Source: Naegleria gruberi
Lineage: Eukaryota
Reading direction: 5' to 3' (one strand)
Assembly: GCA_000004985.1 (NCBI GenBank)
Contig: GG738857.1
DNA length: 64,000 bases
The position numbers and the translations under genes are program-made. Positions 49-54,841 of this stretch are shown here, piece after piece (position 1 is the first letter of the stretch; each line of letters begins with the position of its first letter). The notes below the pieces were generated by a model, which worked only from the letters and a program-made list of their open reading frames with translations, was not told the DNA's origin and ran no database searches.

Positions 49-3000
49 ATGACAACTCCAGCCTTGGAGACATTATCAGTGTTAGAAAACACCGAATCAG
101 CAGAACCCTCACCACAAACCACAGAAACTACCAATGACATCCCAACTCAACCACAAACTATCCCATCAACTGAAACTATTCCTTCCCAATCTTCATCTCT
201 CGAAATGAATAATAATGCACAAGCAGATGAAAATGATGACGATGAAGATGATGATGAATCCACCAGTACAACCACCTCCTCATCCACCACTTTAACTTCC
301 CCAAGAAATGATCCATCACAACCTTCGTTATCCTCATCACACCATTCTAATAATAATATTCAGAAGGCTCTCCCAACTAATACCTATCGTTTGAGTAGGG
401 ACATTAGACAAACCATTACCAATTCAAAGCAACGTAGTCAATCTCTACTCAATAACAACAACATCAATAATACCCAGAGTGGAATTACGAGAGCAAGTGC
501 TTCTTCATCATCCTCTTCTTCGAGTGGCGCCAATTTTTCTGACTCGACAACTACAAAAAATGTAAAACATAGCGCGGAGAATGATTACAAGTATTATGAG
601 AGTGGTAGTAGTGTTGGTGTATCATCATCATCGTTGGAGGATGGAAAGAATGATGATTTGAGGACTCTGATGAGTACTCATATTGTTAATTTGGTTAATG
701 GTGATTCCAATTCTGATGATATTGTGAATCATACTAATAATAATAACAATAATAATGGTGAACAATTGTGTAGGACATTGGAAATTGAAATTGAAAAATC
801 CAAGACTGTCAATAAGTTTTTCATTGAGAATAGAGATGATAGTGCCATCAAGGATTTATTCTCTCAAAATTGTTTGCATTTGTATAATGGAGAGTTTACA
901 GTGTTGAAACATAATGAGAAGGATTATGTTGAGGCTCAACAGGAAAATGTTGCTAACAATGTAAGTTTTCATTCGGAATAGTTGTATCCGATACAGATGA
1001 TGTTTCTTAACTTTCAATTTGTAGACTAAATGTTTAATGTATCACGAACAAGGAAAGGATATTATGGATTTGGCAACAAAGAGGATTACTTTCCACCCAA
1101 ATGATTTTATAGAGGAGTAAGTGTTGTAATATTGAATATTTAAAAACTAAACATAATTGGAAATATAGTCAATTGAATCTATTGACAAAGATTTATAGAT
1201 TCCGATTGGAAGCAGGTGAATTGGAGCCTTATTTCTTATCGCTTGAACTTGTCAATGCTAAAACAAGAGCTAAAATCAGTGAAAGATTTTACTTCCACAT
1301 GACATCTCATCAGCTCATCAATAGTTTTTATGATGAATTGGATGTTAAGAAACAATTACAAAAACAATTGGACCACCAACCAAAAGCATTGTTTTCTCTA
1401 TCACATTTCTTGAAGGGAGAACCTTTGTCTGATGTTTATGCAGTTGTTTTTGTATTTAAAACATTACAAGGAGTTTCTACTGATCAAACACTCAAACAAT
1501 ATCAAGCAGGAAAGAAAAATCATACACTCACAAGGGATACACAATCCGAATGTCTTTCAGGTTCACAAACCTTTGATGATTTCCAAGGACTTAAATATCA
1601 CAAGGAACCTTTCTTATTTTCATTCTGTCCTGTCAAGGAAAGTGGTATTCATGCTATGAGATACTTTTTACCTGTGGAAAGTTTGTTCCAACTCATGAGT
1701 AGCAGTGAATCTGATGTTACAGAAGGAAGTGTTGGAACAAAGAAATTATCACACATTGATGCAGTGTGTGAAATTATCTCACAACAATCAGAGACGTTAC
1801 TTCACTTTTACACACCTCACAATGTTCATGAACGTAGTGAGTTAAAAGAGCAATTAGTTGCAGAAAGTGAACTTGCAAAGAAGAATATCAAAAAGTACAA
1901 GCCAGTTCCTGGTTATTTAGTTTTTGAAACTTACAAATTTAATCCAAAGAAATTTGAATCAGATCCAGTGGAAAGAGTTTTACTCTTTGGATCTGAACAA
2001 GAAAAACCAATGTTTACTACCAGTTCAGCAATTTCACTCGAAGAAGTAATAATCAAAATCCAACATAGAAATGGTAGTATTTTGAATCCTAGAGATCTAA
2101 CTCAAGAAAAGGAACTGAAAAAATGTTTGGCAGCCTCTGATTCTATCAGTTATCAAAATTACAAGATAGAAGAACTCCATGAAAAGCTTCCAAAATTCCC
2201 TCATTTTGATTTCTCACACTTGTTATATATTTCCCCACTAACTCTAAATTTGGAGAAATTCAAGATTGATTCACTTTCGTGTTTGGATGCTGATCCAGCT
2301 CTTTTGGAAACACTTGCAATTAAGAAATTCAAACCAAAGAACGTTCTGGTAAAAGTAGAATATAGAGAATCTATCAAAAAGACAGCCCAAAGAATTATAT
2401 CTCCACATGGACAATCACTTGTATCTGAAATTTACTGTAATGTATTATTCGATGAAGAAAAGATGGTTCGATTCCTAGATGAAATCAAAATTGCCTTACC
2501 ACTTCCAATGGAAAAAGAAAACCACTTGGTCATTTCATTCTATCATTTAGTTATCGAAAAACAAGGTCCAAAGAGAAAAAAGACCCTAGATAGCAATGGA
2601 AATGTGCCAAAGATTTGTTTTGGTTATGCCGTTCTCCCTATCAAGGACATTGTTGAAAATCACTGCTCCAAGATGACAGATTTTACATACACTTACACAT
2701 TACCTATCTATCAAAAATTGAGTGGAGATTATCTTTCAGATTCTAAACGTTTGAGTATTAGTGCATCTGCTAATATTGGATCAATGTCTCAAAAACGATA
2801 CGATATTAAGAAGGTTTCCTTTGTTTGTAACACGAGAATTGTTTCAACTATTTACCCTAACGAAAAACTTCTCCTTCAATTCTTTGCCGATTGTGCTCCT
2901 TTTATTAGTATCACAAAGGAAGGTTCTGACTCGAAAGAATTGTCTAGAGCGGTTAAAGACTGTAGAAAATCAATTGAGAATCTTACAAAAGTTCCATTCT

Positions 3001-3886
3001 CTAAATTAGTAAGCCATTTCACACTCATCATGGATATGTTGCTTAGTGTAATGTGTCGTATTCCAGATGTGATTCACACTTTTGTGAGCGAATCTGAACA
3101 ACAAGAACAGTCTGCACTCTTTGGTGATACTTCACATGGTTTGAGTTTGACTGGTTCTAGTGGCGAAGATGAAATGCTTAAATCAATTAGTGCCAGATTT
3201 GGACTTGCAGAAAGTACTTCTCCTGTTTCTAACTCTGCTTCACTGGAACACAAATCTCTCAGCTCAATCCTTGCAGCTAAAAGAAAATCTGTTACTAACA
3301 GTGTTACCAATAGCACCTCCTCATCTTCACAACATCTCAGTTTTACTACTCCTAATAATCCTTCTTCTGCTACTACTCCTTCAAGTCCAGGCTCTTCTGG
3401 TGAATTGAAAAAGAGATTCTCCCTCAAGAATATTCTCAAGAGAAAATCAAAGGAAGTTGAACCAACTCCAACTGCTTTGCACACTGCACCAACAAATGCA
3501 AAGAAAATTGCTCAACCAGGTGAAGAGGGTTTCAATTTAATAGAATATCTTAAAGCTCAACAAGAACAACAAGAACAAACTCAACACACACCAGAAGTTG
3601 CAATCCCTTCAAAGGAAGACAAATCAAAGAATGAAAAAATCAAGAGAAGAATGTCTCTCACTGATAGATTATTCAATAGAAACAAATCTCTTGATCAATC
3701 CAGTGAAGAAAGTAATACATCTCCAGTTGCTGAGGCAAACAATTCATCTTCAGGTGCTGTAAGAAAGAGTATTACCTTCACTGCTTCTAATACAGACTCT
3801 CGTGGAAGTCAATCTGATTTTGGTGATTTCCTTGGTGTTACAGCAACTTTGTTCGAATTACAGAAAACCGTTTTCCAAGTTATTGT
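49..3886 (+). CDS. Large Ser/Thr/Asn-rich hypothetical protein. Three exons: 49-960, 1025-1116, and 1169 to at least 3886. The 3' end is lost in an assembly gap.
   Basis: ORF-track entries 49..981 and 1173..4001 join in frame through two introns. Intron 1 runs 961-1024 (GTAAGT to tttgtag) and intron 2 runs 1117-1168 (GTAAGT to atatag). Exon 1 ends in phase 0; exon 2 carries 2 nt, completed by t1169. The protein has low-complexity N/S/T tracts. A segment HLVISFYHLVIEKQG...FGYAVLPIKD faintly resembles a C2/DHR-1-like region, but I could not assign a domain. Confidence 0.45.
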
Positions 3887-3986
3887 NNNNNNNNNNNNNN
3901 NNNNNNNNNNNNNNNNNNNNNNNNNNNNNNNNNNNNNNNNNNNNNNNNNNNNNNNNNNNNNNNNNNNNNNNNNNNNNNNNNNNNNN
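3887..3986. other. Assembly gap (100 N)
   Basis: Run of n characters. The flanking ORF reads through it as X residues, so the continuity of the flanking genes is unknown. Confidence 0.95.
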
Positions 3987-4041
3987 TCTTTGAATCTTTA
4001 AATTCTGTTGGTTCTTCCTTGATTTAATTTTGAAATCTTAC

Positions 4042-6765
4042 ATGTTAACACAACGTGAAAAGTGCGAAAAGAGAAGTGCTATGAATGATGTGGAATTCAA
4101 CTTGCTTTCGGAAAGAGAAAGAGAGGCACTCACCACTGATCATGGGTACAAGTTCACACTTTTGTTGAAAGAATTGATTGGAGCTTTAGCAGAAAAGGCT
4201 GTTTTCTATAAGGACGATTTTGCTAACTTCTTTGTTTCATCTCAAATTAACAATCAACTTGCCTTCTTCTTTAGAGATTTACTTGGCTGTGGTGATTTAA
4301 TCAAACATGAATATGTTTTCGATTTGATGGAAAGTTACTTTAGAGAATTCACAGTCAAAAAGCCAGTCACCATTAACACTATCAAGCTTTGTATTGATTT
4401 CTTGCAAATTTTATCTGACCATCCACAATTTGCTGAATTGAACTTGTCAATCTTCCATCCAAAGGAATATATTTATCATGAATCAATTCTTTGTCCACCA
4501 GTCAAACTTTTGGTCAATCTTATTAGAGATTGTATCACCAAGTTTAAGAGTGAAATTGATGTACACAACAGTGCTATCAAAGTTCTCAGATATATTCTCA
4601 CTAAGGAGGAATATACTCATCTTTCAATTCCAAATGTAACAACAACAAGGGCTGAATTAATTGCTAGAATCTATTTCCCATATATTGTCATGTTGTTGAA
4701 GAATTTCCATGCCTTGGAATCTCTTCCTGAAATGACCACAAGACAGCACTTGAAATGCTCAGTTTGGATTTTATCTAATGTAAACTCTCAATTCTTTGAT
4801 GATTGGATCAAAACATCTGATCAAAATGTTGTTGATAACTTGGTCAAATTATTAGCTTTCTATTTGGACCATTTCGAAATCAAAGGAAGAGTTAAATACG
4901 AAACAAGTTCATTCAAAGCATTCCAACTCGTCTTTTCTAGACTTAGTAACCACCTCAAAGAAAGGGTTGTATCTATTATTGAACAGTTTAGCGATGACAT
5001 CAAGGTATTTGAACCTTCACACAGAGACTTGTCATCATTCATCAAGATGGACATTAGAGATTGTGAAGGTGCCAAATATCAAACAGATAACGGTATGAGC
5101 GAGAAAGATTTCATTGGCTACATTATGTTTACAATTGCAAAAATTATGCAAATTGTATCAATAGGAAGGCAAAAGAAAGTTAGTTTGGATATGGAAGAAA
5201 CTAGTATTGATTTAATTTCTTATTATGTCGAGCTTTTTACTCCAGTTTTCAGAGCTAATCCAAACAGTACTTACTGGAAATGGCTGTATGGAGCTCTTCT
5301 CTCTGGAAAGGAATTCTCTATGGCTACTGTAGAAGGTATCCTTGCAGGTGCAAGCGATACACTCTATGAAAAATTGATCAACATTTTGGAAAGAGTTTAC
5401 GAAAAAGATATCATCAATGTTGACAATCTATCAAAACTATTTGATGATTCAAGCGTCGCTGAAAGCGAAATTATTCTTGATGAGGAAAACAAAATCAAGG
5501 CATCCACTTTGAACAGACTTGTTGCACGTGTTTGTGATCAGAATAATAGTGGTGATTCCAAATTTACTGACACATTCTTAGTGACCTATCGTTCTTTCTG
5601 TACTCCTGAAACTCTACTCACATTAATGATGAGCTACTTTGAATATCATGTATTGCCTAAAGGTGATCAAGAAATTAATAGTAACAATAAGACTCTTGTT
5701 CTGAGAATGTTGAACACTATAAGATTATGGGTTCAAGATCACAGTTATGACTTTAATAATTGTCTCAATGCTTCAATGATGCACTTTATCTATCAACAAG
5801 TTGGTAGATTGTGTGTTATTGAAAAATCATCAAACTCTGGTTATATTAGTATTGCTAATAAGATTAAGGAAAGAATAGAAGCCAATCTTGTTTGTAATGG
5901 CGAATCTCGTGAAAAGTTGGAAAAGATGTTCAGTCGTGAAAGACCTCAACCAAAATATCCATCCAAATGGAGTGAAGCATACGAAAAGAAAGCATTCAGT
6001 ATCAAGCAATGGGATCCTCAAGAAATTGCCAAGCAAATCACTCTCTTGGACAGTGTAATTTTCACAGCCATTGAACCAAAAGAATTCTTTGGTCTTGGTT
6101 GGACAAAGAAGGACAAGATGATCAGAGCTCCAAACATTGTTCACCTCACTGATCAATTCAATAATTTATCAATGTTCGTTACCTCGGATATTGCCTGTGA
6201 GGAAAATCTTAAGAAGAGAGTAAGAAAAGTCAAACAATGGATCAATGTTGCTTGGGAATGCAAAAATCTTAATAATTTGAATGGTTGTAACTCTATTGTT
6301 TCTGCTTTCAACAATGCAGGTATTCACAGACTTAAAAAGACCTGGGATGCCATTCCAAAGAAAGACATTGAGAATGACAGATTAAGACAATTGAATGAGC
6401 TTGTCTCAATGACCAGTTCTTACAAGAATATGAGAGAACATATGTCCAGATCAGGTGAAGGTATTCCATACATTGGTATCTATTTAACTGATATGGTTTT
6501 CATTGAAGATGGTAATAAGGATTACATTACAAAGGAAAATTCCGATTTACAATTAATCAACTTTGCCAAGAGACGTAAAATTGCAGAAGTTATTCAAAGA
6601 ATCAAAACTCAACAACAAACTCTTTATGATTTCATTCCAATTCCATTTTTACAAAGAACTTTTGATTTCTCATCATTGACCGATGAAGAGAAGACTAAGA
6701 CATTATTATCCGATGACGTTATTTGGAACAAATCACTTGTAATTGAACCAAGAGAAAACAAATAA
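4042..6765 (+). CDS. Ras guanine-nucleotide exchange factor with a RasGEF N-terminal (REM) domain and a CDC25-homology domain
   Basis: Continuous ORF. The REM-like motif is FTDTFLVTYRSFCTPETLLTLMMSYF. The CDC25-domain signatures include WDPQEIAKQITLLDSVIF, RLKKTWDAIPKK and GIPYIGIYLTDMVFIEDGN, which matches the GNPD-loop region of RasGEFs. The first in-frame ATG is at 4042, with the nearest upstream in-frame stop at 3991. Confidence 0.8.
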   Translation: MLTQREKCEKRSAMNDVEFNLLSEREREALTTDHGYKFTLLLKELIGALAEKAVFYKDDFANFFVSSQINNQLAFFFRDLLGCGDLIKHEYVFDLMESYFREFTVKKPVTINTIKLCIDFLQILSDHPQFAELNLSIFHPKEYIYHESILCPPVKLLVNLIRDCITKFKSEIDVHNSAIKVLRYILTKEEYTHLSIPNVTTTRAELIARIYFPYIVMLLKNFHALESLPEMTTRQHLKCSVWILSNVNSQFFDDWIKTSDQNVVDNLVKLLAFYLDHFEIKGRVKYETSSFKAFQLVFSRLSNHLKERVVSIIEQFSDDIKVFEPSHRDLSSFIKMDIRDCEGAKYQTDNGMSEKDFIGYIMFTIAKIMQIVSIGRQKKVSLDMEETSIDLISYYVELFTPVFRANPNSTYWKWLYGALLSGKEFSMATVEGILAGASDTLYEKLINILERVYEKDIINVDNLSKLFDDSSVAESEIILDEENKIKASTLNRLVARVCDQNNSGDSKFTDTFLVTYRSFCTPETLLTLMMSYFEYHVLPKGDQEINSNNKTLVLRMLNTIRLWVQDHSYDFNNCLNASMMHFIYQQVGRLCVIEKSSNSGYISIANKIKERIEANLVCNGESREKLEKMFSRERPQPKYPSKWSEAYEKKAFSIKQWDPQEIAKQITLLDSVIFTAIEPKEFFGLGWTKKDKMIRAPNIVHLTDQFNNLSMFVTSDIACEENLKKRVRKVKQWINVAWECKNLNNLNGCNSIVSAFNNAGIHRLKKTWDAIPKKDIENDRLRQLNELVSMTSSYKNMREHMSRSGEGIPYIGIYLTDMVFIEDGNKDYITKENSDLQLINFAKRRKIAEVIQRIKTQQQTLYDFIPIPFLQRTFDFSSLTDEEKTKTLLSDDVIWNKSLVIEPRENK

Positions 6766-11705: not shown

Positions 11706-12931
11706 ATGGTCATTGATATTAGTCCTAGTTCATTCAAGAGAGTTGGTGTTGTTTATAATCCAATTTCAAGAGGAGGTAAGTAAAATAATTAGATGGTGAT
11801 AATTAATATATGCGATGATCAAATTATCAATTAATAATAGGTCAATCTGGAGCCTTGTTTAAGAATACAATTCATCCACTTCTTGACAAATATTTGAAGG
11901 AACGTATGGTAAAATGTAGAGCCACTGAAAGTATGGGTGATGGCAGTAGATGTGCTTTTGAATTGGTTGTTGAAGATAAATGTGATTTGATTATCACACT
12001 TGGTGGTGATGGTTCTACACAAAATACTCTCAACGGTTTAGTGAGAGGTTGTTTGTATTTGGATCCTCAAGCTTTGGCAAAGGGTGCACCACTCCCAGTT
12101 GGTTTGGCAGTTATTCCAACAGGATCTGGTAATGATTTGCAAAAGACAATCGGAGGTGAACCAGTTGACGTTTATTCAGAAGCATTCTTTGAAAGAACTG
12201 TCAAAACTATTGCAGAATCAGGCAAAGTTGTTTATGCAGATATTGGTAAAGTTGAATATACCAAAGATAATACTGGTATTATTTTGCCAGCATTGAATGA
12301 CGAACATATTCCAAAACAATATTTGAGCAATGACAGTTCTAAGAAACTTGCTTATCAATTTGATAGTGAAAATACTGGTGTTAGATTCTTTATGAATGAA
12401 AGTAGCTTTGGTATCAGTACTTCAGTTTTGAATGCTGTCAACAATAGTACCATCAGCAAGGAGATCAATTATAATGTTCAAACTTTGTGGAAACAACTTA
12501 CCTTTGTTAATCCATCGATTGACGTTGAAGTTGATGGAGAGACTGTTTATAGTGGCATTTCTCAATTGGTTTGTGTTGGTAACGGCAAGGCCTTTGGTAA
12601 TGGCATGTATCCAAATCCTAATGCAACAATTACAAGTGAAAACTTGTCCGTCTGTATTTTACATAACATTAGATTGTGGAATGTATTTTCAGTTGTCTAT
12701 TCTTTGAAGGCCGGAACAATTGGTTCATATGCATTGGCATCTCTTCTTGAAGGAAAGAAATCTTTGAAAGCAAAGAGAAGTGAATCCGAAACTCAAGATG
12801 TTTATTTGGAATGTGATGGTGAAGTTGTTGGTAAATTGCCAGCTCAATATGATGTTGTTCCAGCAATTATTAAAATGATTGTTCCAGAAAGCTCACCAGA
12901 ATATGAACTCCATAGCAAGAAGAATCTCTAA
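11706..12931 (+). CDS. Lipid kinase of the diacylglycerol-kinase catalytic-domain family (sphingosine/ceramide/acylglycerol kinase-like). Two exons: 11706-11775 and 11841-12931.
   Basis: ATG at 11706. The intron runs 11776-11840 (GTAAGT to aataatag), with a split Gly codon (g|gt). DAGK_cat signatures are LIITLGGDGSTQNTLNGL and VIPTGSGNDLQKTIG. Confidence 0.7.
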
Positions 12932-16662: not shown

Positions 16663-18011
16663 ATGTTTTATGCCGCCGGAGCTAATGAACATGGTAGGTT
16701 ATTAGTAATAATTAAATAGTAAATTGATGGAATATCAAATTAATTTATAGGTCAATTGGGGAATGGTACTTACTCGAACGTTATGGATCTCTCTCCCATC
16801 AACATATCAGCTCATCACTATAGACAAAAAACCTATCGTCAGCTAGGTCCCAAATGTCTTGCTGATTTTGCATCACTCGATGAACGTTCATTGATTGGTC
16901 TTTGTAAAATTAAACAAATTGCTTGTGGTAAACGTCATACCATGATACTAACTGGTAAGTTATTGTATCACAGCATGTTCAAGCTAATTAAACTATTTAA
17001 ATAGAGGAAAATGATTTGTATGCTTGCGGAGATAATTCCAACTCTCAACTTGGAGTCTATGAAACAATATCCAATAATACTGTTGAATGGATAGATTTTG
17101 AACCCGCTAGGACGTCAAGAATTACCTCAATTGCTTGCAGCTCTAATTCTTCCTTTATATTTTTGGAAAATGGTGAAATGTACAAAACAAGTCCTAACAA
17201 AATCTCTAATTTATCCCACAAAAATTCATTTTTCAAACTTACCATCGATAGCAAGAGCCAAGTGAAGAATTTCTTTAGCTCACCAACAACGAGTAGATTC
17301 CACATACTAACCAATGATAATTCTGTATTTGTAGGAGGGGAAGATGAGCAAGGTTTTTGGTTGTCAAGACAAGACCAAGCTCTGAAACCGACATCATTCC
17401 CTATCATCACCAACCCAATTAAAATAATTTCAAGTGGAGGTTTCCATACAGTCATTATTACCGAGAAGAATGAATATTTCAGTTTGGGAGGAAATTATTT
17501 CTATCAACGAGGTGACACAGATGATAGAGCTGCCATTAGAGAAGGTACTAATTTACCATTCTCTGGAAAGGCTATTAGTCAAGTTTGTTGTGGACATTTC
17601 CACACACTAGTGTTGTGTGCAGATGGAAGCTTGTATGCTTGTGGTAAAAACAGTCATGGACAACTTGGAAGCCCAACCCTCAATGAAAAGAATCTCTACA
17701 TGAAAGTACCAATTAATGCCTATATACACTCAATGCTTTGTGGAACAGACCATACCGTATTATTATCAACTGATAAGAGAGTTATGAGATGTGGAAAAAA
17801 TGACAGAGGGCAAATCTTTATAGATTTCAAAAAGCAAAACTCATCATTTGAAATGCTGAAAGTCAAGGAGTTTGCCCATTTGGCTTGTGGTGCTCATTTT
17901 ACAATATGTTATGGAGACATGACCTATGTTATTAATCGTTTCCCAAAGATTGCTTCATTTCTGAAGAGAACAGAACTATCTGATGTGAGGATTAAGTGTT
18001 ATGACGATTAA
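16663..18011 (+). CDS. RCC1-repeat (regulator of chromosome condensation-like) protein. Three exons: 16663-16693, 16751-16954 and 17005-18011.
   Basis: Exon 1 is MFYAAGANEH plus g. Intron 16694-16750 (GTAGGT to tttatag) gives ...HGQLGNGTYS. Intron 16955-17004 (GTAAGT to aaatag) gives ...ILTG-E-NDLYACGDNSNSQLG. The GxNxxGQLG and CGxxHT motifs recur at least six times. Confidence 0.7.
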
Positions 18012-18216: not shown

Positions 18217-20256
18217 TTATTGTTGGTTGGTATTGAGAATATACGATAGTTTGTGTTTAGGTTGATCTGGTAAACTATCTGAAGATTTGGAAAATGTTGA
18301 GTGTTTTTGTTTTTCGGTAGTCCATCTCTTAAATGAATCGAAAATGATATTATTCACGACAATATCCTCCAAACCACTAAAAAGTTCCTGCTGTCCAATA
18401 CCACTATTAATTTTGTATCTATATGAATCCAATTCTGTGCTTGAAATATTCAGCAATTTTGGAGCGTTTGGAGCCAAATACTTTTGATACATTTCCTTCT
18501 GCAGTTCACTTCTTTGCTGTAAATTGTTCAGCATCTTGTAGAATTGAACATCTTCCAAGAAGAGTATGGATTCTTCATTGTGCTCCTTAATACAGAACTC
18601 TTTAAATTCATTTCTCTTGGTGTGGTTGTCGAACATTTCCTTAAATTCAATTTTTTCTACGAGTTTGTTGTATTGGGTTTCCTTTTCCTTCAAGTGCTTC
18701 AAGAGGGATGTTTTATCTGTATGGTTGTGGATGAGAAGGACGCAAACCAAAATATAATCAGAGATTTCTTCTGTTGACTTATCCTCTGATTGATGCTTGT
18801 TTGCCTCAGTTTTGAGCATTTTACAAAAGTTGATAGAAACTCTCACATTGAACTCAATGCCCACCTTACTAGAGGCAACAGTTTCAAGATCGTGGAATGA
18901 TGCTTCATCTCCTTCAGTGAGGGCTTTTTCAAACATTTCTTTCAAATTGAGTTTTGGTAGAATTGAATTAATGATAGTTGACCTATCCTTTTCACCTCTT
19001 CTCAAATCAATTTCTGTCAGTGAAAACATGTTGTAGAATGCATTATTACAGTGAATAATGGATCCATCAGTTAGAATTGTAATGACAGCATCATCGATGG
19101 TGTTCAAAATTCTTCTTGTTCTCTGCTCCTCGAGAGAAATCTTATCCAATAGCACAGATAATTGTTGATGACTCTGAGCTAGATCTTTCGTCCTCTCTGC
19201 CACCTTAATTTCTAATTTGTTTTGAATGATGAGGTATTCCTTCTTTCTAAAATAGTCCTGAACCAATTGGAAGACTGCCAGAATGACTAGAACTGCCAAA
19301 ATAAAATTCAAAACAATACCAAAAGCAATTTCCACATAGTAGGTATCTTCGTGGGTCCATCCTTGTAAAGGTTTTAACAAGAGTTTGTATTCGCTATTGA
19401 GAATGGTCATATTTACAGAGATTGCATCATCAATGCTAGTCAAGTTGGTAGTGATACCATTTGTTGTCATGTTGGTACCATTTCTGGCCTCTAAGAAAAT
19501 TCTATTTTGTTCATATTCATATAATTGATATTCATAACCTTTGAGAGTATCATGGAGGTTGATTCTGTTGAATAATGTTGTAAAATAGATGATTGAACTC
19601 GATAATCCCCAAAATGTTTGATTAGGATAAAACAATGGGTACTGTGTAATGAGAGCAGCTGTTGCTAATCTCTTAATATAGATTGGTCCAAAGATTGTAG
19701 TTTCCTTCAGTTCAATTGCTCTGTTGATGGCTCTCAAGTGAGCTGCTTCACTACCAACAACCTTTCCATAAACAAACGAAAGAACAAGTCCCTTGTCAAT
19801 TTCGAATTGTGCTAATTCCGGATAAATTACATTTAACCTCGAACCAAGGTCTGCAAATGAAGAATCCGTTATTGTATAATTTGATGAATAAATTACTTGA
19901 GCAATTGAAACTAAACTACTCATTGACAATTCTATTTGTCTTTTCATGGCCAAGTAGGCTGTTAATCCCACCTGTGTAACTTGTGCCTTCTTTGTTTCCA
20001 TTCTATTATCATCAACAGTTTTTAAAACGACAGACGTCACCGGCACAGTCACACACAAGGCAACCAATGCCAGAACTAAACCCAATATTATACTCAATAT
20101 ATAGACTCCTCGTTGTCTTTTCGATAATTCTTGTTTCAAATTTCCTACAACATTTTCACTTGTTGAAAGAGCTTGTTTAGATTGTTTTAATGTTGGAGTT
20201 GAATCTCCAGCCACAGTTGGCCCAATTTCTTCGTCTATTAGCGAATCCAGCACCAT
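18217..20256 (-). CDS. Two-TM sensor receptor. An extracellular CHASE/Cache-like domain sits between the TM helices, followed by a coiled coil, a PAS domain and a C-terminal RGS domain.
   Basis: Continuous 679-aa ORF with ATG at 20256. The TM helices are VYILSIILGLVLALVALCVTVPV and VEIAFGIVLNFILAVLVILAVFQLV, with about 250 aa between them. The PAS-like block is RILNTIDDAVITILTDGSIIHCNNAFYNMF. The C-terminal RGS box runs EFCIKEHNEESILFLEDVQFYK...YQKYLAPNAPKLLNISS...FDSFKRW. Confidence 0.6.
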   Translation of the reverse strand: MVLDSLIDEEIGPTVAGDSTPTLKQSKQALSTSENVVGNLKQELSKRQRGVYILSIILGLVLALVALCVTVPVTSVVLKTVDDNRMETKKAQVTQVGLTAYLAMKRQIELSMSSLVSIAQVIYSSNYTITDSSFADLGSRLNVIYPELAQFEIDKGLVLSFVYGKVVGSEAAHLRAINRAIELKETTIFGPIYIKRLATAALITQYPLFYPNQTFWGLSSSIIYFTTLFNRINLHDTLKGYEYQLYEYEQNRIFLEARNGTNMTTNGITTNLTSIDDAISVNMTILNSEYKLLLKPLQGWTHEDTYYVEIAFGIVLNFILAVLVILAVFQLVQDYFRKKEYLIIQNKLEIKVAERTKDLAQSHQQLSVLLDKISLEEQRTRRILNTIDDAVITILTDGSIIHCNNAFYNMFSLTEIDLRRGEKDRSTIINSILPKLNLKEMFEKALTEGDEASFHDLETVASSKVGIEFNVRVSINFCKMLKTEANKHQSEDKSTEEISDYILVCVLLIHNHTDKTSLLKHLKEKETQYNKLVEKIEFKEMFDNHTKRNEFKEFCIKEHNEESILFLEDVQFYKMLNNLQQRSELQKEMYQKYLAPNAPKLLNISSTELDSYRYKINSGIGQQELFSGLEDIVVNNIIFDSFKRWTTEKQKHSTFSKSSDSLPDQPKHKLSYILNTNQQ

Positions 20257-23360: not shown

Positions 23361-24884
23361 ATGAGTGAGAATAATACACCAAACTTTGACGCATTCTCTC
23401 CAATTGTATTTCCAATGGATCTGCCAACGGCAGGTGGTAGTAATCAAACATCATCATCAGCAGTCGGTGGTGGATCATCATCATTGGGTTTGAATACATC
23501 GAGCAATTTTCTAACACCTTCAGTCTTTGAAACGAATGTAAGAGTTGGCGTTAATCAAACTTCAAGTATTAAACCGATTAGAGCTGTGGGTCTTGATGCT
23601 TTTAATAATGATACTTCATCGGTGCCAATTTCTAATGAAGAATCACCACAAATATTTACACCAGGCATCACAGCTGAACTTTTAAATACACAAACACCAA
23701 GGATTCAACTTTTACCTCCAACTCCAACACCAAACGAAACTCCATTCGCAACCAAGATTGACAATCTTTATCCACAGCAGGTTGATCCATTGAGCAACTT
23801 TGATTTTGGACAAAAGAATCATAGACCTGTAGGTGCTGCAAATATTGTGACACAATATCCTGCCAATACTTTTAATATGCATGTCATGAAGGGTTTCTTT
23901 ATTGATCCAAGTCAAGTTGCCGCAGTTCCACAAGGTATGCCACAAATTCCAGGTCCCAGTAGTGATTCGCCATCGTCACCAACTGGTGAATGTCTTCCAA
24001 CTGGTACTTTACTTTCTGTTATTAGAGGATTTAGTATTGATGATGGAGTTCCAGAAGAACCTGGTGGCAGAGACAATAAGAAACCACTCACTTCACACAC
24101 TGTTCAAGTTAGAATTGCTGACCTAGTTGCCGAACATCCATTAGGTCCAAATCAAACCTACGTAATCAAATGTGTATTATTAGGTTATAAACGATATGAA
24201 AAGGAAGAATTATCAACATTAGAATCAATACCAATTGAAAATATTGATAACCCTGCAGAGTATGAAGAATTTGTCTTTAACAATCTGATTGTTAAACAAA
24301 CAAGTCACAGCAATGGTCAAAAGTTATTCTTGAGATTTAAACTTGAAATTAATTCTGATAGTGGAGAACAAGTATTGGAAGCTTTAGATACTACACACTT
24401 TAAAACAGTCACAAAGAGAGCTGTCATTAAAAGAGGTGTAACTAGGAAATTGAGCGAGCAAAAGAAGACAGCAACTGTATTGACAGGAGCAGAACCAAAA
24501 TACAGTGTCACTTCTGGTGGTCAATTGATAAAACTGGTAACAAATAACATGCCAGAAAAGGTCAGAGTTCAAACAATTGTAGTTAAATTTGGAGAAAAGA
24601 AAGCCAGAAGAGTTCACTCAGCTAGGGATAATGTAATTATTTGTGAAACACCTGAATATCCAAAATCTGACAATGTACCAATTTCTGTTTCATTAGATAG
24701 TGGAGCAACATTTTTCCATTCGTCTGGTGTTAAAATGTCGTTTATTGACCCAACTGATGGATTACCAGATATCACTCCTCACAGTCAAACATTTGTTGTG
24801 AACTTTGCTCAGGCTGCCAGTGACCTTAAACATGACAGAGATGAAGATACCGAACCAAATAATAAGAAAAAGTCTAAGAAATAA
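23361..24884 (+). CDS. Putative DNA-binding transcription factor with an IPT/TIG domain, resembling the Rel/NDT80/CSL family, plus a long low-complexity N-terminus
   Basis: ATG at 23361, continuous 507 aa. The C-terminal block EPKYSVTSGGQLIKLVTNNMPEKVRVQTIVVKFGEKKARRVHSARDNVIICETPEYPKSDNVPISVSLDSGATFF has IPT/TIG character. The upstream beta-rich segment (VQVRIADLV...YVIKCVLLGYKRYEKEEL...LFLRFKLEINSD) is compatible with a p53-like DNA-binding fold, but the family is uncertain. Confidence 0.45.
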   Translation: MSENNTPNFDAFSPIVFPMDLPTAGGSNQTSSSAVGGGSSSLGLNTSSNFLTPSVFETNVRVGVNQTSSIKPIRAVGLDAFNNDTSSVPISNEESPQIFTPGITAELLNTQTPRIQLLPPTPTPNETPFATKIDNLYPQQVDPLSNFDFGQKNHRPVGAANIVTQYPANTFNMHVMKGFFIDPSQVAAVPQGMPQIPGPSSDSPSSPTGECLPTGTLLSVIRGFSIDDGVPEEPGGRDNKKPLTSHTVQVRIADLVAEHPLGPNQTYVIKCVLLGYKRYEKEELSTLESIPIENIDNPAEYEEFVFNNLIVKQTSHSNGQKLFLRFKLEINSDSGEQVLEALDTTHFKTVTKRAVIKRGVTRKLSEQKKTATVLTGAEPKYSVTSGGQLIKLVTNNMPEKVRVQTIVVKFGEKKARRVHSARDNVIICETPEYPKSDNVPISVSLDSGATFFHSSGVKMSFIDPTDGLPDITPHSQTFVVNFAQAASDLKHDRDEDTEPNNKKKSKK

Positions 24885-24892
24885 ATGTAAAT

Positions 24893-26899
24893 TTAAACAA
24901 GATTTAAATTCTTCATATCATCGTCATATTTCTTCAATTCTCTAACCATGTCAATAAAGTTAGAGCTCAGAATAAATCTTGACCATGTATCTTGAACACA
25001 ATTTAAACAGGTTATTTCTACATTATCAAGGATGGTATTTAAAAGGTCAGTGTTGCTGGATTGCCATGATGAATCCCCTTTCTCTGTCATTTCTTGATCT
25101 CCACTTTTGTTGAGATGGGTTTCCACGAGTTGATTGAGTTGCTTAAGAGATCTATCAAACTCCTTCTTTACATTGGATGAAAGATTGAGCTCGAATGGTG
25201 CACCATTGACAATAAAGCTCTCGTTGAGTTTGTGTAATATTTGTGTTTTCTTTCTGATATCCTCAAAGGTATGAGTTGGAAGATTGTTGAAAACCTTATT
25301 GGAAAAGTACAAGAATAAAAAGTTCTCTGCTGAAAACTCCAATTCGCACCATTCTTTGAAATATTTCTGACAAACCTCCTCATTAAACATGACAAAGAGA
25401 ATGACACGAGTATCAACAATTCTTTCATCTTGCTCTTCTGCATTTTCCTTTGTAAGAAATCCAGCTTCAGTGTAGAGAATCTTTCTAATTCTATCATTTT
25501 CCATATCGGAGGATAAATCTCTGAACAAGTTGCTACTACCACTTCTATCAGCAGAATTATTCTTATTCTTGATTCCAATTTTCTTGCCGTCAGAGTTTTG
25601 CCATAAGAAACTTCTAATCAAAGGTATCCATACACTGATGATACTTGTAATGAAGAGAGGAATATTAACCATCCATGCAGCTGCAAAGTAATATTCAGGT
25701 TCTGCTTGGTATTGTGGAATGACACTCATTAAAATAAAGCCAATTAAGAAAATGGCCCAAATTACCACAACAGATACCAACTCTGCCTTGATGCCAAAGG
25801 ATTCCTTGGCATATCTCATTACCTTGTAGAAGAAGAATAGAATGAAAATACCATAGAATAGAATGAGAGAAATTGAACCTGCATATACAGGAATAGTAGC
25901 AGCACAACCCACATTCCAAGTTTCTTGACCTGTCAATCTATTCAAAAACACTCCACAATAAGCCAAAAAGATAATACTGTTCAAGAGGAAAGTGAATAAG
26001 AAAATTTTAGCAGTAAAGTCCTCTCTAGCCAATTTTCTCAATTGCTTCAATCTCTTTTGTCTCTTTTCTGACCATTTCTTACTCTTGGCTGTATTGTCAA
26101 CATTTCCACCTAAATGCAAAGCACTTTTCACTCTCTCCTTAAAACTCTTCGATGTAGAACTATCTCTTTTAAGGTGTGGAATGTTTTGTGAATTTTTTCT
26201 ATCCAGGGCAAGGTCGAATGAACCTGTTGTGGAGACAGTTGCTGGTGAAGCATCTGTTGTTATCTGTGAAAGTGAAGAATTTGCAGTCAACAAATGTATT
26301 TGAGAAGATGATTTGTCAAGCTTCTTTTCCGTTGTTGATGATGTTTCCAAAAGATCAACGCCCATGGAAACTAAATGACTCTTAAAACTATCACCCTGTA
26401 ATCTGTTCATTTCAGAAATATAGTACAATCTGATGCACAAGACAAGGTATGGAATGGCTATCAGTGGAAAGCCATAAAATTGAAAACTCAAATAGAATAT
26501 ACAAGGGAAGGCCTCTCTTTTCACAGCCAACCTCAGAGAAAGTATCGTAAAGGAAAAATAATGTGCAATAATTAATATAAATACAAATAGTGAGGATCTC
26601 GCCTTGACAGGTTGTTTGTTTCTTCTAAAGAAGAATGTTATGAGTGTTACGATTGTATATATTGTGAATGCTCCCCAAATTGCATATGATGTGTACCAAA
26701 CGTATGGTGGATCATCTCGTGTAATCTGTTGATTAAATTGGTCCTGTTGAATATCATAGATTTTTCCAATTTCTTCCAAATTATTCGAAAGTTGAAAATG
26801 ACTCGCCGATGCTGATGATGATGTACACGTGAACATATTCATTATCCTATTCACTATCGATTGTGAAAGGAAATCCATCGTGGTTAATAAATATCTCAT
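24893..26899 (-). CDS. Seven-transmembrane protein with a C-terminal RGS domain (7TM-RGS, AtRGS1-like topology)
   Basis: Continuous 668-aa ORF with ATG at 26899. It has seven hydrophobic helices; three come before and four after a roughly 150-aa Ser-rich loop. The C-terminal RGS box reads CQKYFKEWCELEFSAENFLFLYFSNKVF...ILHKLNESFIVNGAPFELNLSSNVKKEF...TWSRFILSSNFIDMV. Confidence 0.65.
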   Translation of the reverse strand: MRYLLTTMDFLSQSIVNRIMNMFTCTSSSASASHFQLSNNLEEIGKIYDIQQDQFNQQITRDDPPYVWYTSYAIWGAFTIYTIVTLITFFFRRNKQPVKARSSLFVFILIIAHYFSFTILSLRLAVKREAFPCIFYLSFQFYGFPLIAIPYLVLCIRLYYISEMNRLQGDSFKSHLVSMGVDLLETSSTTEKKLDKSSSQIHLLTANSSLSQITTDASPATVSTTGSFDLALDRKNSQNIPHLKRDSSTSKSFKERVKSALHLGGNVDNTAKSKKWSEKRQKRLKQLRKLAREDFTAKIFLFTFLLNSIIFLAYCGVFLNRLTGQETWNVGCAATIPVYAGSISLILFYGIFILFFFYKVMRYAKESFGIKAELVSVVVIWAIFLIGFILMSVIPQYQAEPEYYFAAAWMVNIPLFITSIISVWIPLIRSFLWQNSDGKKIGIKNKNNSADRSGSSNLFRDLSSDMENDRIRKILYTEAGFLTKENAEEQDERIVDTRVILFVMFNEEVCQKYFKEWCELEFSAENFLFLYFSNKVFNNLPTHTFEDIRKKTQILHKLNESFIVNGAPFELNLSSNVKKEFDRSLKQLNQLVETHLNKSGDQEMTEKGDSSWQSSNTDLLNTILDNVEITCLNCVQDTWSRFILSSNFIDMVRELKKYDDDMKNLNLV

Positions 26900-27640: not shown

Positions 27641-29146
27641 ATGATGGGAAATGTGATTTTGGAGTTGGATAGAAATATTTCATCGGAATTTCTAAAGGAT
27701 CAATTTTCAAGGACTTGCAAATTGAATTATTTAAAAACTATAATATTTCAACTTGTTGTGATTAGAGATAAGAAGTGCCTCCCTCTTGTTCAATTATTTA
27801 GTCATGATCGAGGATTTATTGAAAAGATGGTCGAATATCAGGCATTTGCTCTTGGCTATGCTTCAAAAGAAATTAAAAAAGACAAATCGATAGCAGTTAA
27901 GGCATTGAAAACAAGTGGACACTCAATATCTTGTGTCGATGAGTCGTTATATTCCGATCGAGAAATAGCTCTTATTGCACTATCAAGTCATTCCTATGCC
28001 ATTCGTTTCTTTATGGAACACTTTTCTAATGATAAGGAGATAATCATGAATGCAGTTTCGAAATGTGGTAACTTAATTCATTATGCTACATATTGTGATT
28101 TGGATATTATATTGGCTGCTGTGACAACGTACGAGCTTGCATTTGAGCTTGCCGACCCAAAATATTATTTTGATAGAGAAATAATGATGGTAGCGGTTAC
28201 AAGGAATGGAATAACTCTTAGATATGCAAGTGAAACATTACGAGAGGATAGAGAAATAGTTCTGAAAGCTGTGAAAAATGCTGGAGATGCTTTGAGATAT
28301 GCCTTAGTACAAGATAGAGAAATTGCCTTAGAGGCAGTAAAATCTTCTGGTACAGCGCTTCAGTTTGTTGACAAGAATTTCCTTAGCGACTCAGAAATAG
28401 TCATGATAGCTCTTCATTCAAATGGTTCTTCTTTACAGTATCTACCTAAAGAAATGAGAGAAATAAGGGAATATGTTGAAGCTGCAATTTCTGAAAATCC
28501 TCTGTCAATTCAATATGCTAGTGAGGTGTATAAATCAGATAGAGAGCTAGTTAAAAAGGCTATATCCGAAAAGGGAAATATTTTAGGATATGTTGACAAG
28601 AAATTTCTGAAAGATGAGCAAATTGTTTTTTTGGCTGCTTTAAACAATCCTATAACCTTCAAATACGCAGATGAAAGTTTACGGTCTAATCTGAATTTCA
28701 TATTGGACATTATAAGGACTTCAAAGAAAACAAATGTATTAATGAGCTATTTGCCGGCCCCTGGTAGCATTAACATTTATAATGATAGAGAGTTCTATTC
28801 AAAGATTCCTATCGATACACATTTTATTAAGGAGAAAATTAGACTTTGTGGATTCAAGGCTACATTTGAAGAGTTTAGTTACAGTAAGGAAATAATTACA
28901 GAGATGGTCAAAGATTACATGACACTTGCTTTTATTAATGAAGGACTTCAACAAGATAGAGAAATGCTTCGAACTGCTCTTAATCTTAATGGTGAGCTGA
29001 TTAGTGAAATGCCTTTCATTATTGACAACTTGGATATTGAACTGATTCAAGTATCATTAATTTCCCTTCTTTCTGGCAGCGATGATAAAGAAAAGGAAAT
29101 TATCCATCAAACTCTACAATTAATCCAACATTCACAACAACTTTAA
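27641..29146 (+). CDS. DUF4116-type repeat protein
   Basis: ATG at 27641. At least eight copies of an approximately 37-aa repeat occur, for example DREIVLKAVKNAGDALRYALVQDREIALEAVKSSGTALQFV. These match the DUF4116 repeat pattern (REIxLxAVxxNGxALxYA). Confidence 0.6.
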   Translation: MMGNVILELDRNISSEFLKDQFSRTCKLNYLKTIIFQLVVIRDKKCLPLVQLFSHDRGFIEKMVEYQAFALGYASKEIKKDKSIAVKALKTSGHSISCVDESLYSDREIALIALSSHSYAIRFFMEHFSNDKEIIMNAVSKCGNLIHYATYCDLDIILAAVTTYELAFELADPKYYFDREIMMVAVTRNGITLRYASETLREDREIVLKAVKNAGDALRYALVQDREIALEAVKSSGTALQFVDKNFLSDSEIVMIALHSNGSSLQYLPKEMREIREYVEAAISENPLSIQYASEVYKSDRELVKKAISEKGNILGYVDKKFLKDEQIVFLAALNNPITFKYADESLRSNLNFILDIIRTSKKTNVLMSYLPAPGSINIYNDREFYSKIPIDTHFIKEKIRLCGFKATFEEFSYSKEIITEMVKDYMTLAFINEGLQQDREMLRTALNLNGELISEMPFIIDNLDIELIQVSLISLLSGSDDKEKEIIHQTLQLIQHSQQL

Positions 29147-54840: not shown

Positions 54841-54841
54841 A

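What the first reader, a model, noticed from the sequence alone, without database searches (positions are those of the whole stretch)
18217..20256. An unusual architecture: 2TM extracellular sensor, PAS domain and RGS domain
The N-terminal half looks like the input module of a CHASE/Cache-type sensor kinase. It has TM1, an extracellular domain of about 250 aa, TM2 and a coiled coil. But the output is a PAS domain followed by an RGS domain, not a kinase. If this is right, an extracellular ligand would directly control G-alpha GTP hydrolysis. I do not recall this domain combination being described.
Basis: inference. Interest (0 to 1): 0.65.

Follow-up and report, generated by a model that had tools for sequence, protein, structure and literature searches.

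The report
CHASE-sensor receptor with RGS output
This Naegleria gruberi gene encodes a membrane receptor that joins a bacterial-style extracellular CHASE ligand sensor to an intracellular RGS domain instead of a kinase, so an outside signal could directly switch off G proteins; the design is real, conserved in related amoebae, and apparently undescribed.

Summary
Window 18217-20256 (-) is one uninterrupted 679-codon ORF, identical to the NCBI Naegleria gruberi "RGS domain-containing protein".

Its layout is: cytosolic tail, TM1 (51-78), a 231-aa extracellular domain (79-309), TM2 (310-332), a signalling helix with the ERT signature (354-356), PAS (~387-511) and RGS (538-656). There is no kinase domain.

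Three lines of evidence show the extracellular domain is a divergent CHASE domain:
- A profile of the domain searched against 1.84 billion proteins. 65 of 74 of the next-best hits outside the top 15 proteins carry Pfam CHASE, mostly in histidine kinases or GGDEF/EAL proteins.
- Close family members in Willaertia magna and in metagenomes pass the Pfam CHASE threshold at the same position.

The whole architecture is collinear in N. fowleri, N. lovaniensis and three Willaertia paralogues. It also occurs in a second N. gruberi paralogue clade and in environmental eukaryotic contigs, so it is not a gene-model artefact.

The RGS domain keeps the G-alpha contact residues (Asn603, Asp640, Arg644). The most likely function is a ligand-regulated receptor-GAP, analogous to 7TM-RGS proteins. 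That function is inferred, not shown. I rate it a new variant of a known kind.

The parts
18217..20256 (-). Complete single-exon CDS (679 aa plus stop) of the CHASE-PAS-RGS receptor
   Evidence: ORF list. It is 100% identical to the NCBI N. gruberi protein. In-frame stops lie directly upstream.
20107..20256 (-). Cytosolic N-terminal tail, residues 1-50. It is disordered, variable between species, and ends in the basic KRQRG.
   Evidence: pLDDT is below 50 for residues 1-34. The ortholog alignment is poorly conserved here.
20023..20106 (-). Transmembrane helix 1, residues 51-78
   Evidence: Hydropathy maximum of 3.02. Translation checked. The segment is part of the continuous helix 30-124 in the model.
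19330..20022 (-). Extracellular divergent CHASE domain, residues 79-309. It consists of a long stalk helix followed by two PAS-like alpha/beta lobes and carries 6 N-glycosylation sequons.
19261..19329 (-). Transmembrane helix 2, residues 310-332
   Evidence: Hydropathy maximum of 3.01. Translation checked.
19099..19260 (-). Cytosolic signalling helix (S-helix-like coiled coil), residues 333-386. The ERT signature is at residues 354-356 (nt 19189-19197).
   Evidence: Continuous helix 304-386 in the model. ERT falls at heptad positions c, d, e with hydrophobic a/d neighbours. The signature is defined in PMC1592074. E354, R355 and T356 are invariant in the four close orthologues.
18724..19098 (-). 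PAS domain, residues 387-511, with a variable low-complexity insertion at about 484-503
   Evidence: Pfam PAS_8 at 27.8 bits, above its cut-off, and PAS_9 and PAS below theirs. The model has five beta strands (389-394, 399-403, 455-462, 468-481, 501-511) plus helices. Foldseek matches LOV/PAS proteins.
18646..18723 (-). Helical linker between PAS and RGS, residues 512-537
   Evidence: Helix 516-543 in the model.
18289..18645 (-). RGS domain, residues 538-656. Asn603, Asp640 and Arg644 occupy the positions of RGS4 Asn128, Asp163 and Arg167.
   Evidence: Pfam RGS E 1.4e-12. PDB sequence hits to RGS10, RGS6, RGS5, RGS7 and RGS17. Foldseek matches RGS17 and RGS1 with TM-score 0.75.
18217..18288 (-). 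Disordered C-terminal tail, residues 657-679, plus the stop codon
   Evidence: pLDDT below 50 for residues 656-679.

Best explanation
The gene encodes a type of receptor-GAP. It is a (probably dimeric) two-pass membrane protein whose extracellular CHASE domain binds an unknown small ligand.

The proposed signal path is as follows. The conformational change passes through TM2 and an ERT-type signalling helix to a cytosolic PAS domain. The PAS domain then changes the availability or activity of the C-terminal RGS domain towards membrane-bound G-alpha-GTP. In this way an outside cue would set the rate of G-protein inactivation.

Shown here:
- the domain order, the membrane topology signals, the CHASE identity of the sensor and the intact RGS contact residues;
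- conservation of the whole arrangement across heterolobosean amoebae.

Inferred:
- plasma-membrane location and dimerisation;
- that the RGS domain is an active GAP on a Naegleria G-alpha;
- that ligand binding modulates it, and in which direction.

In evolutionary terms it looks like a bacterial-type CHASE-PAS-histidine kinase receptor in which the kinase was replaced by an RGS domain.
For: Architecture:
- Pfam RGS and PAS are above their cut-offs, and there is no kinase.
- Two TM helices are present, and sequons are enriched in the loop.

CHASE identity:
- The sensor profile finds 426 proteins at E<=1e-3 in 1.84 billion.
- Of the 74 hits ranked 16-89, 65 carry Pfam CHASE, 39 HATPase_c, 32 HisKA, 11 GGDEF and 7 EAL.
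- Family members P0007, P0008, P0011 and P0006 score 34.9, 28.0, 38.7 and 27.6 bits on CHASE against a cut-off of 25.
- The N. lovaniensis orthologue gives a sub-threshold CHASE hit at the homologous position.
- An extracellular-only profile without the TM segments still recovers the CHASE proteins.

Transmission:
- ERT lies at heptad c, d, e.
- An NCBIfam match to the TM2-PAS region of the kinase AtoS has E 1.2e-7.
- The closest non-family homologue examined, P0019, is CHASE-PAS-HisKA-HATPase next to a LytTR response regulator.

RGS competence:
- Asn603, Asp640 and Arg644 are invariant in the four close orthologues. They align with the 'qvN' and 'DSYxRF' motifs of RGS10.

Conservation:
- Orthologues at 59-62% identity over the full length occur in N. 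lovaniensis and N. fowleri.
- Three Willaertia magna paralogues share the architecture.
- A second N. gruberi paralogue, P0158, is collinear with E 1e-26.

Biological context (PMC9283941):
- Several N. fowleri G-alpha subunits are self-activating.
- Hydrolysis on some of them is accelerated by RGS domains.
- 28 of these RGS proteins are 7TM-RGS, 79 others carry RGS domains, and only one candidate GPCR was found.
Against: - There is no experimental evidence for GAP activity, for a ligand or for localisation.
- The N. gruberi protein itself does not reach any Pfam CHASE score, so CHASE membership rests on transitive profile and fold evidence.
- The RGS4 Asn88 position is Ser563 in the three Naegleria orthologues.
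- The second paralogue clade (P0158, P0011) has Asp at the Asn128 position and lacks ERT, so not all family members need be GAPs.
- How a PAS domain would gate an RGS domain has no studied precedent.
- The monomer AF2 model gives low confidence for the helix-PAS junction (374-386) and no inter-domain information (pTM 0.42).
- CHASE receptors such as AHK4 are largely in the ER (from memory), so the sensor could face an organelle lumen.
Confidence: 0.6

Rival explanations
1. The RGS domain is not a GAP. Instead it acts as a G-alpha-GTP docking or effector module, as in RGS-RhoGEFs, GRKs, Axin or sorting nexins. On this view the protein is a membrane scaffold or an effector of G-alpha: G-alpha binding would modulate the receptor, or simply localise it, rather than the receptor switching G-alpha off.
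For: - De Mendoza et al. 2014 (PMC3971589) state that some RGS domains have lost GAP activity and act as scaffolds.
- The paralogue clade with P0158 and P0011 has Asp in place of the catalytically important Asn. It also scores weakly on Pfam RGS (18.2 and 25.8 bits).
- The Naegleria trio has Ser at the RGS4 Asn88 position.
- N. fowleri RGS-RhoGEF binds G-alpha as an effector.
Against: - In the clade that contains the window gene, the Asn128, Asp163 and Arg167 equivalents are invariant.
- The best sequence and fold matches are canonical GAP-active R4, RZ and R7 family RGS domains: RGS10, RGS17, RGS1, RGS5, RGS6 and RGS7.
- There is no other output domain that a docked G-alpha could regulate.
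Confidence: 0.17
2. The cytosolic PAS domain is the real sensor, for example of a metabolite, redox state, oxygen or light. The CHASE domain would then be a degenerate or merely structural/dimerising ectodomain, making the protein an intracellular-signal-regulated membrane RGS.
For: - PAS domains often bind cofactors or ligands.
- The N. gruberi CHASE domain is too divergent for the Pfam model and has a deletion in the 'P..GNE.aiG' segment relative to its relatives.
- The column aligned with the cytokinin-binding Asp262 of AHK4 is His or variable in the family.
Against: - The ectodomain is as well conserved as the rest of the protein (63% identity between Naegleria species).
- It folds with high confidence into a complete CHASE fold.
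- It keeps the motifs shared with bacterial CHASE domains: GP, WG, GY.Y and P..GW.
- The PAS domain is the weakest-scoring and least confidently modelled domain. It carries a variable low-complexity insertion, and I saw no LOV-type Cys motif (reading of the sequence).
- PAS domains placed between a TM sensor and an output commonly act as transmitters (established knowledge of sensor kinases).
Confidence: 0.12
3. The architecture is a gene-model artefact: two adjacent genes (a sensor and an RGS protein) read as one, or a chance ORF.
For: None was found.
Against: - The 679 codons are continuous, with a chance probability of about 2e-23.
- The NCBI gene model is identical.
- The same collinear order, without breaks, is found in N. 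lovaniensis, N. fowleri, three Willaertia paralogues, P0158 and metagenomic or read-assembly contigs on independent assemblies.
- TM2, the S-helix and PAS form one continuous conserved block that bridges the two halves.
Confidence: 0.01

Closest known systems
Seven-transmembrane RGS proteins (Arabidopsis AtRGS1; the 28 N. fowleri 7TM-RGS proteins)
   Same: These are receptor-like membrane proteins with a C-terminal cytosolic RGS domain. They are thought to let an extracellular cue control GTP hydrolysis on self-activating G-alpha subunits. Isolated RGS domains of four N. fowleri 7TM-RGS proteins accelerate hydrolysis on specific G-alpha subunits (PMC9283941).
   Different: The window protein has two TM helices, not seven. 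Its sensing is done by a globular extracellular CHASE domain rather than a 7TM bundle. An S-helix and a PAS domain lie between the membrane and the RGS domain.
CHASE-domain sensor histidine kinases (Arabidopsis AHK4/CRE1, Xanthomonas PcrK, Dictyostelium DhkA, many bacterial kinases and GGDEF/EAL proteins)
   Different: Their output is HisKA/HATPase, GGDEF, EAL or cyclase, whereas here it is an RGS domain. The sequence is very divergent: the AHK4 profile E-value is only 0.058. The cytokinin-contact Asp262 column of AHK4 is not conserved, so cytokinin binding cannot be assumed.
[quoted passage not shown]
   Same: They have a helix of roughly 40-50 residues between the membrane or sensor and the output, with the ERT signature at heptad c, d, e (PMC1592074).
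   Different: RGS does not occur in that paper's text (0 occurrences). Here the helix feeds a PAS domain and then an RGS domain.
dCache sensor domains (B. subtilis KinD, Pseudomonas PctA/PctC and similar)
   Different: The sequence profile evidence points to CHASE and not to dCache families. No dCache Pfam hit was obtained.
Sorting nexin 13/14/25 (RGS-PX proteins)
   Same: These are membrane-anchored RGS-domain proteins with N-terminal TM helices (from memory). De Mendoza et al. list them as conserved opisthokont RGS architectures.
   Different: They have no extracellular sensor domain. They carry PXA/PX domains and have an endosomal function.

Membership tests
CHASE domain (Pfam PF03924) | An extracytoplasmic domain of about 200-230 aa flanked by two transmembrane helices at the N-terminus of a signalling protein | tested here: met
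   The 231-aa loop (79-309) lies between TM1 (51-78) and TM2 (310-332).
CHASE domain (Pfam PF03924) | A direct match of this protein to the Pfam CHASE model above its gathering score (25 bits) | tested here: not met
   No CHASE hit was found for the N. gruberi protein or for its isolated loop, even at E<=10. The N. lovaniensis orthologue gives 15 bits (E 0.021) at the homologous position. This is an operational threshold rather than a biological feature. The next two rows address homology.
CHASE domain (Pfam PF03924) | Sequence homology to bona fide CHASE domains, shown by profile search | tested here: met
   The orthologue profile hits 426 proteins (36 at E<=1e-10). 65 of 74 of the hits ranked 16-89 carry Pfam CHASE (best E 1.4e-33). 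Same-architecture relatives P0007, P0008, P0011 and P0006 exceed the CHASE cut-off. The collinear alignment shows shared motifs.
CHASE domain (Pfam PF03924) | The CHASE fold: a long N-terminal stalk helix followed by membrane-distal and membrane-proximal PAS-like lobes | tested here: met
CHASE domain (Pfam PF03924) | Binding of an extracellular ligand | not testable with these tools
   The column aligned with AHK4 Asp262 is His or variable. No ligand can be inferred.
RGS domain (Pfam PF00615) | A match to the RGS model above its gathering score, and the all-helical RGS fold | tested here: met
   48.4 bits against 23.9, E 1.4e-12, residues 538-646. The model shows a helical bundle over 516-656. 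Foldseek matches RGS17 and RGS1 at TM-score 0.75 with 22-24% identity.
RGS domain (Pfam PF00615) | Conserved G-alpha switch-contact residues (RGS4 Asn128, Asp163, Arg167; Glu87/Asn88) | tested here: met
   Asn603, Asp640, Arg644 and Glu562 are invariant in the four close orthologues. The Asn88 position is Ser563 in Naegleria but Asn in Willaertia and environmental members. The residue mapping to RGS4 is from my knowledge of the RGS4 sequence.
RGS domain (Pfam PF00615) | GTPase-accelerating activity on a G-alpha subunit | not testable with these tools
   This needs biochemistry, with assays as in PMC9283941.
PAS domain | A match to a PAS model above its cut-off, and a five-stranded antiparallel sheet with flanking helices | tested here: met
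   PAS_8 scores 27.8 bits against 21.8. The strands are 389-394, 399-403, 455-462, 468-481 and 501-511. Foldseek matches LOV-PAS and PpsR PAS proteins.
S-helix (signalling helix) | A coiled-coil segment of about 40 residues between input and output, with an ERT signature at heptad positions c, d, e | tested here: met
   E354-R355-T356 fall at c, d, e, with L348, V352, L359, L366, L369 and I373 at a/d. The definition comes from PMC1592074. No dedicated HMM was available.
7TM-RGS receptors (AtRGS1 type) | Seven transmembrane helices N-terminal to the RGS domain | tested here: not met
   Only two hydrophobic segments are present. The protein works like this class but is not a member.
Sensor histidine kinases / two-component receptors | HisKA (or equivalent) and HATPase_c catalytic domains | tested here: not met
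   No such Pfam or NCBIfam domain was found. The AtoS match covers only the TM2-PAS region.

The most novel reading that the evidence does not exclude
Heterolobosean amoebae took a bacterial-type one-polypeptide sensor (CHASE, TM, S-helix, PAS) and wired it to an RGS domain. This would create a ligand-gated GAP receptor, a second and structurally unrelated solution (besides 7TM-RGS) for controlling self-activating G-alpha subunits from outside the cell without a GPCR. If so, prokaryotic transmembrane signalling mechanics (piston or rotation through an ERT signalling helix and a PAS dimer) can allosterically gate a eukaryotic RGS domain. The family would also give a tractable system for finding environmental ligands that Naegleria, including the pathogen N. 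fowleri, senses.
Probability: 0.45. Interest if true: 0.72.

Novelty: new variant of a known kind. Interest (0 to 1): 0.55.

Why it matters
Receptor-like RGS proteins are the proposed main route by which organisms with self-activating G-alpha subunits, such as plants and Naegleria, sense the outside. So far this idea rests on 7TM-RGS proteins, whose ligands and gating are poorly understood.

A CHASE-S-helix-PAS-RGS receptor would show that the GAP output can also be driven by the well-studied bacterial sensor-kinase input machinery. It would add RGS to the list of CHASE outputs (kinase, cyclase, GGDEF/EAL).

It would also offer modules that can be swapped with reporter enzymes for ligand discovery. 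The orthologue in the lethal pathogen N. fowleri (FDP41_001120) makes the ectodomain a potentially accessible surface target.

The finding remains a domain-architecture inference without experiments, and Naegleria has about a hundred RGS proteins of varied design. The surprise for a specialist is therefore moderate rather than large.

Tried and rejected
1. A direct Pfam or NCBIfam scan of the N. gruberi ectodomain found no sensor family, even at E<=10. A PDB sequence search with the four-orthologue profile gave only noise, such as cyclodipeptide synthase and monellin at E>0.03. With the 30-sequence profile, AHK4 was the top PDB hit but only at E 0.058, and PcrK at 0.69. This is suggestive but not significant on its own.

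2. The word-indexed homologue search was of little use. With the single protein, and again with the 16-sequence family alignment, it returned only the same four proteins. It did not recover even the Willaertia sequences in the query alignment. The second search was effectively wasted. The exhaustive representative search was what opened up the family.

3. A Foldseek search against the AlphaFold database, meant to survey other taxa for the full architecture, was not possible because the library is not installed.

4. Anantharaman et al. 2011 (Gene 475:63) is the survey most likely to have listed unusual RGS architectures in Naegleria. It is not held under its DOI or its PMC id, so prior description there cannot be excluded.

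5. Literature searches for RGS with CHASE, Naegleria with CHASE, and Naegleria with RGS and PAS found nothing relevant. Another search returned only 'pulse-chase' papers.

6. I considered inferring cytokinin binding, because both solved CHASE structures are cytokinin sensors. I rejected this because the AHK4 Asp262 column is not conserved and the identity is about 12-13%.

7. I considered a dCache assignment. Fold scores are nearly as high as for CHASE, but the sequence profiles point to CHASE.

8. I considered gene fusion or a missed intron and rejected it (see the rival explanations).
Full report
**What is there**

The finding's coordinates match exactly one ORF on the minus strand, 18217..20256. 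It is 679 codons long and starts with ATG. The window is 33% G+C, so a random reading frame hits a stop about every 14 codons. The chance of 679 stop-free codons is about 2e-23, and in-frame stops lie immediately upstream of the ATG.

The protein is 100% identical, end to end, to a database entry named 'RGS domain-containing protein [Naegleria gruberi]'. Full-length orthologues exist in N. lovaniensis (59% identity, 99% coverage) and N. fowleri FDP41_001120 (62%). There is also a 478-aa environmental fragment at 43%. The window is therefore N. gruberi nuclear DNA. Its neighbours are typical eukaryotic signalling genes. Being eukaryotic, they say nothing about function by operon logic.

**Checking the observation**

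- Hydropathy gives two strong transmembrane segments, V51-L78 and I310-V332, in all three Naegleria orthologues.
- The 231-aa loop between them carries 6 of the protein's 9 N-x-S/T sequons. By my reading of the positions listed, four of these are conserved in position in the three species.
- Basic residues flank the cytosolic sides (KRQRG before TM1, RKK after TM2).
- Pfam finds RGS at 538-646 (E 1.4e-12, 48.4 bits against a cut-off of 23.9) and PAS_8 at 379-425 (27.8 against 21.8), and no kinase, cyclase or other output domain.
- NCBIfam's best match is to the TM2-to-PAS stretch of the bacterial kinase AtoS (E 1.2e-7), far below that model's full-length cut-off.

The only adjustment is that the ectodomain is about 230 aa rather than about 250.

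**What the ectodomain is**

Direct scans failed. The N. gruberi loop matches no Pfam family even at E<=10, although the N. lovaniensis orthologue gives a sub-threshold CHASE hit (15 bits, E 0.021) in the right place. A four-sequence profile finds nothing in PDB sequences.

The decisive step was an exhaustive HMMER search with the orthologue profile of residues 40-345 against 1.84 billion representative proteins. It returned 426 hits at E<=1e-3, 36 at <=1e-10 and 11 at <=1e-30.

The top 15 or so proteins are of similar length and form a family.
- Pfam shows CHASE+PAS+RGS in P0007 (CHASE 34.9 bits), P0008 (28.0 bits) and P0011 (38.7 bits).
- It shows PAS+RGS in P0005, P0010 and P0015, and CHASE+PAS in P0006.
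- The CHASE cut-off is 25 bits, so four relatives pass it at the position homologous to the window protein's loop.

Of the next 74 hits, 65 carry Pfam CHASE (best E 1.4e-33). Their outputs are typically bacterial: HATPase_c in 39, HisKA in 32, receiver domains in 16, GGDEF in 11 and EAL in 7. A profile restricted to the extracellular residues, with no TM segments, still recovers them. The alignment is collinear, with shared motifs (..GP.., FWG, GY.Y.L, W.L...P..GW).

Structure prediction gives independent support.
- The 16-sequence full-length model has pLDDT 80-94 over the ectodomain.
- A 30-sequence ectodomain model reaches pLDDT 88 and pTM 0.84. It shows a 46-residue stalk helix followed by two alpha/beta lobes.
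- Foldseek with the full model gives the same classes, plus RGS17 and RGS1 for the C-terminus.

I conclude that the sensor is a divergent CHASE domain within the Cache-like fold class. Its ligand cannot be inferred. The column that aligns with the cytokinin-binding Asp262 of AHK4 is His or variable in this family, and identity to AHK4 is only about 13%.

**The transmitter**

TM2 continues as one helix to about residue 386 in the model. Within it, E354-R355-T356 is invariant in the four close orthologues, and R355 is nearly invariant across the wider family. With R355 placed at heptad position d, the triplet occupies c, d, e, and L348, V352, L359, L366, L369 and I373 fall on a/d.

This is the defining 'ERT' signature of the signalling helix of Anantharaman, Balaji and Aravind (PMC1592074). 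Mutations of its R or T lock Sln1p or guanylyl cyclase outputs on. That paper does not list RGS among S-helix partners.

The PAS domain that follows has the canonical strand order. It is the least confident domain and contains a species-variable low-complexity insertion (about 484-503). I saw no cofactor motif, and I regard it as a transmitter rather than a sensor. This is an inference.

**The output**

The RGS domain aligns with RGS10, RGS6, RGS5, RGS7 and RGS17 in PDB sequences. It superposes on RGS17 and RGS1 at TM-score 0.75.

Using my knowledge of the RGS4-G-alpha-i1 contacts, the key residues map as follows:
- Asn128 corresponds to Asn603.
- Asp163 and Arg167 correspond to Asp640 and Arg644.
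- Glu87 corresponds to Glu562.

All are invariant in the close orthologues. The Asn88 position is Ser563 in Naegleria but Asn in the Willaertia and environmental members. This pattern fits an active GAP but does not prove one.

**Distribution**

Named members are Naegleria (three species) and Willaertia magna, which has three paralogues: KAL9649680, KAL9656577 and KAL9646184.

A second, deeper clade exists.
- N. gruberi NAEGRDRAFT_81188 (P0158, 960 aa) is collinear with the window protein from the CHASE domain to the RGS domain (21% identity, E 1e-26).
- It is 32% identical to the metagenomic P0011, which sits on a 9.8-kb contig of long intron-free genes at 36-39% GC.
- This clade lacks ERT and has Asp at the Asn128 position.

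Another relative, P0009, lies on a contig next to ATG9 and is therefore eukaryotic. Some short relatives (P0012, P0014, P0017) have no detectable RGS (for P0012 and P0014, for P0017; alignment). They may be truncated or different.

No RGS appeared among the listed families of the 74 more distant CHASE hits. That list shows only 25 of 26 families.

The closest non-family hit examined, P0019, is CHASE-PAS-HisKA-HATPase, followed 113 bp downstream by a LytTR response regulator. This is a bacterial two-component pair. Its N-terminal two-thirds mirror the Naegleria protein, which suggests that the kinase was replaced by RGS.

A survey of eukaryotic histidine kinases reported no CHASE domain among the 24 N. 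gruberi kinases (PMC6324907). In this lineage CHASE therefore seems to be coupled to RGS rather than to phosphorelay.

**How it most likely works**

Bosch et al. (PMC9283941) report the following for N. fowleri:
- Several G-alpha subunits exchange nucleotide spontaneously, so hydrolysis is rate-limiting.
- The isolated RGS domains of 7TM-RGS proteins accelerate that hydrolysis selectively.
- The genome has 28 7TM-RGS proteins, 79 other RGS proteins and only one candidate GPCR.

In that setting a membrane receptor whose cytosolic end is an RGS domain is best read as a receptor-GAP. Ligand occupancy of the CHASE domain would be relayed by TM2, the S-helix and PAS, and would raise or lower GAP action on a membrane-bound G-alpha.

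The architecture, the CHASE identity, the conserved contact residues and the evolutionary conservation are shown here. Localisation, dimerisation, GAP activity, ligand and the sign of regulation are inferred. I put 0.6 on this explanation as a whole.

The rivals are:
- an RGS domain used for docking or effector binding rather than as a GAP (0.17), favoured for the second clade;
- PAS as the true sensor (0.12);
- a gene-model artefact (0.01).

**Comparison with what is known, and novelty**

The protein works like 7TM-RGS receptors but fails their defining feature of seven helices. It has the input of CHASE sensor kinases but lacks their catalytic domains. It contains an S-helix like receptor cyclases and Sln1p.

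I found no description of a CHASE-RGS or CHASE-PAS-RGS protein in the searchable literature. The databases label the N. gruberi protein only as RGS- or PAS-containing. The 2011 survey by Anantharaman et al. could not be read, so prior mention there is possible.

I classify it as a new variant of a known kind: a receptor-GAP and a CHASE receptor in a new combination. Interest is moderate, at 0.55. The design is real, conserved and testable, and it links bacterial-style transmembrane signalling to heterotrimeric G-protein control. However, it is an inference from architecture in an organism already known for an exuberant and varied RGS repertoire.

Noticed in passing
window 54409-58980 (+): A 1523-aa ORF made of many PPR repeats, ending in an E motif and a DYW deaminase domain (Pfam E 3.4e-36). 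This is a plant-type RNA-editing factor. From memory, DYW-PPR proteins are already known from N. gruberi.
   Followed up: partly
window 1173-4001 (+), 4030-6765 (+), 11855-12931 (+), 17016-18011 (+): The neighbourhood is rich in signalling genes. It holds a DOCK-C2 protein, a RasGEF_N+RasGEF protein, a DAG-kinase/YegS-like lipid kinase and an RCC1-repeat protein. The RCC1-repeat gene is convergent with the RGS gene, and their 3' ends lie about 200 bp apart.
   Followed up: partly
window 27641-29146 (+): A 501-aa ORF built from seven DUF4116 repeats (E 8.8e-89), of unknown function.
   Followed up: no
window 23361-24884 (+), 24893-26899 (-), 38146-40995 (-), 42348-45953 (+): Four long ORFs (507-1201 aa) have no Pfam match at E<=1e-4.
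   Followed up: no
P0158 (N. gruberi NAEGRDRAFT_81188, elsewhere in the genome) and L001 4050-6485: This is a second, deeply diverged clade of CHASE-TM-PAS-RGS proteins with a long low-complexity N-terminus. It has no ERT signature and has Asp at the RGS4 Asn128 position. Its RGS domain may not be a conventional GAP.
   Followed up: partly
L004 3199-5058 and 5439-6923: On an unidentified eukaryotic contig with an ATG9 neighbour, the CHASE-PAS relative P0009 sits next to a separate gene with a weak RGS hit on the opposite strand.
   Followed up: no
window 18745-18807 (-), residues ~484-503: The PAS domain carries a charged, low-complexity insertion between its last two beta strands. The insertion varies in length and sequence between species: it is much longer in the environmental members P0004 and P0010 and absent in P0011.
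   Followed up: no
window 19744-19770 (-), around residues 163-171: Relative to its N. lovaniensis, N. fowleri and bacterial homologues, the N. gruberi CHASE domain has a 5-7 residue deletion in the 'YP..GNE.aiG' segment. This probably explains why the Pfam CHASE model misses it entirely.
   Followed up: partly
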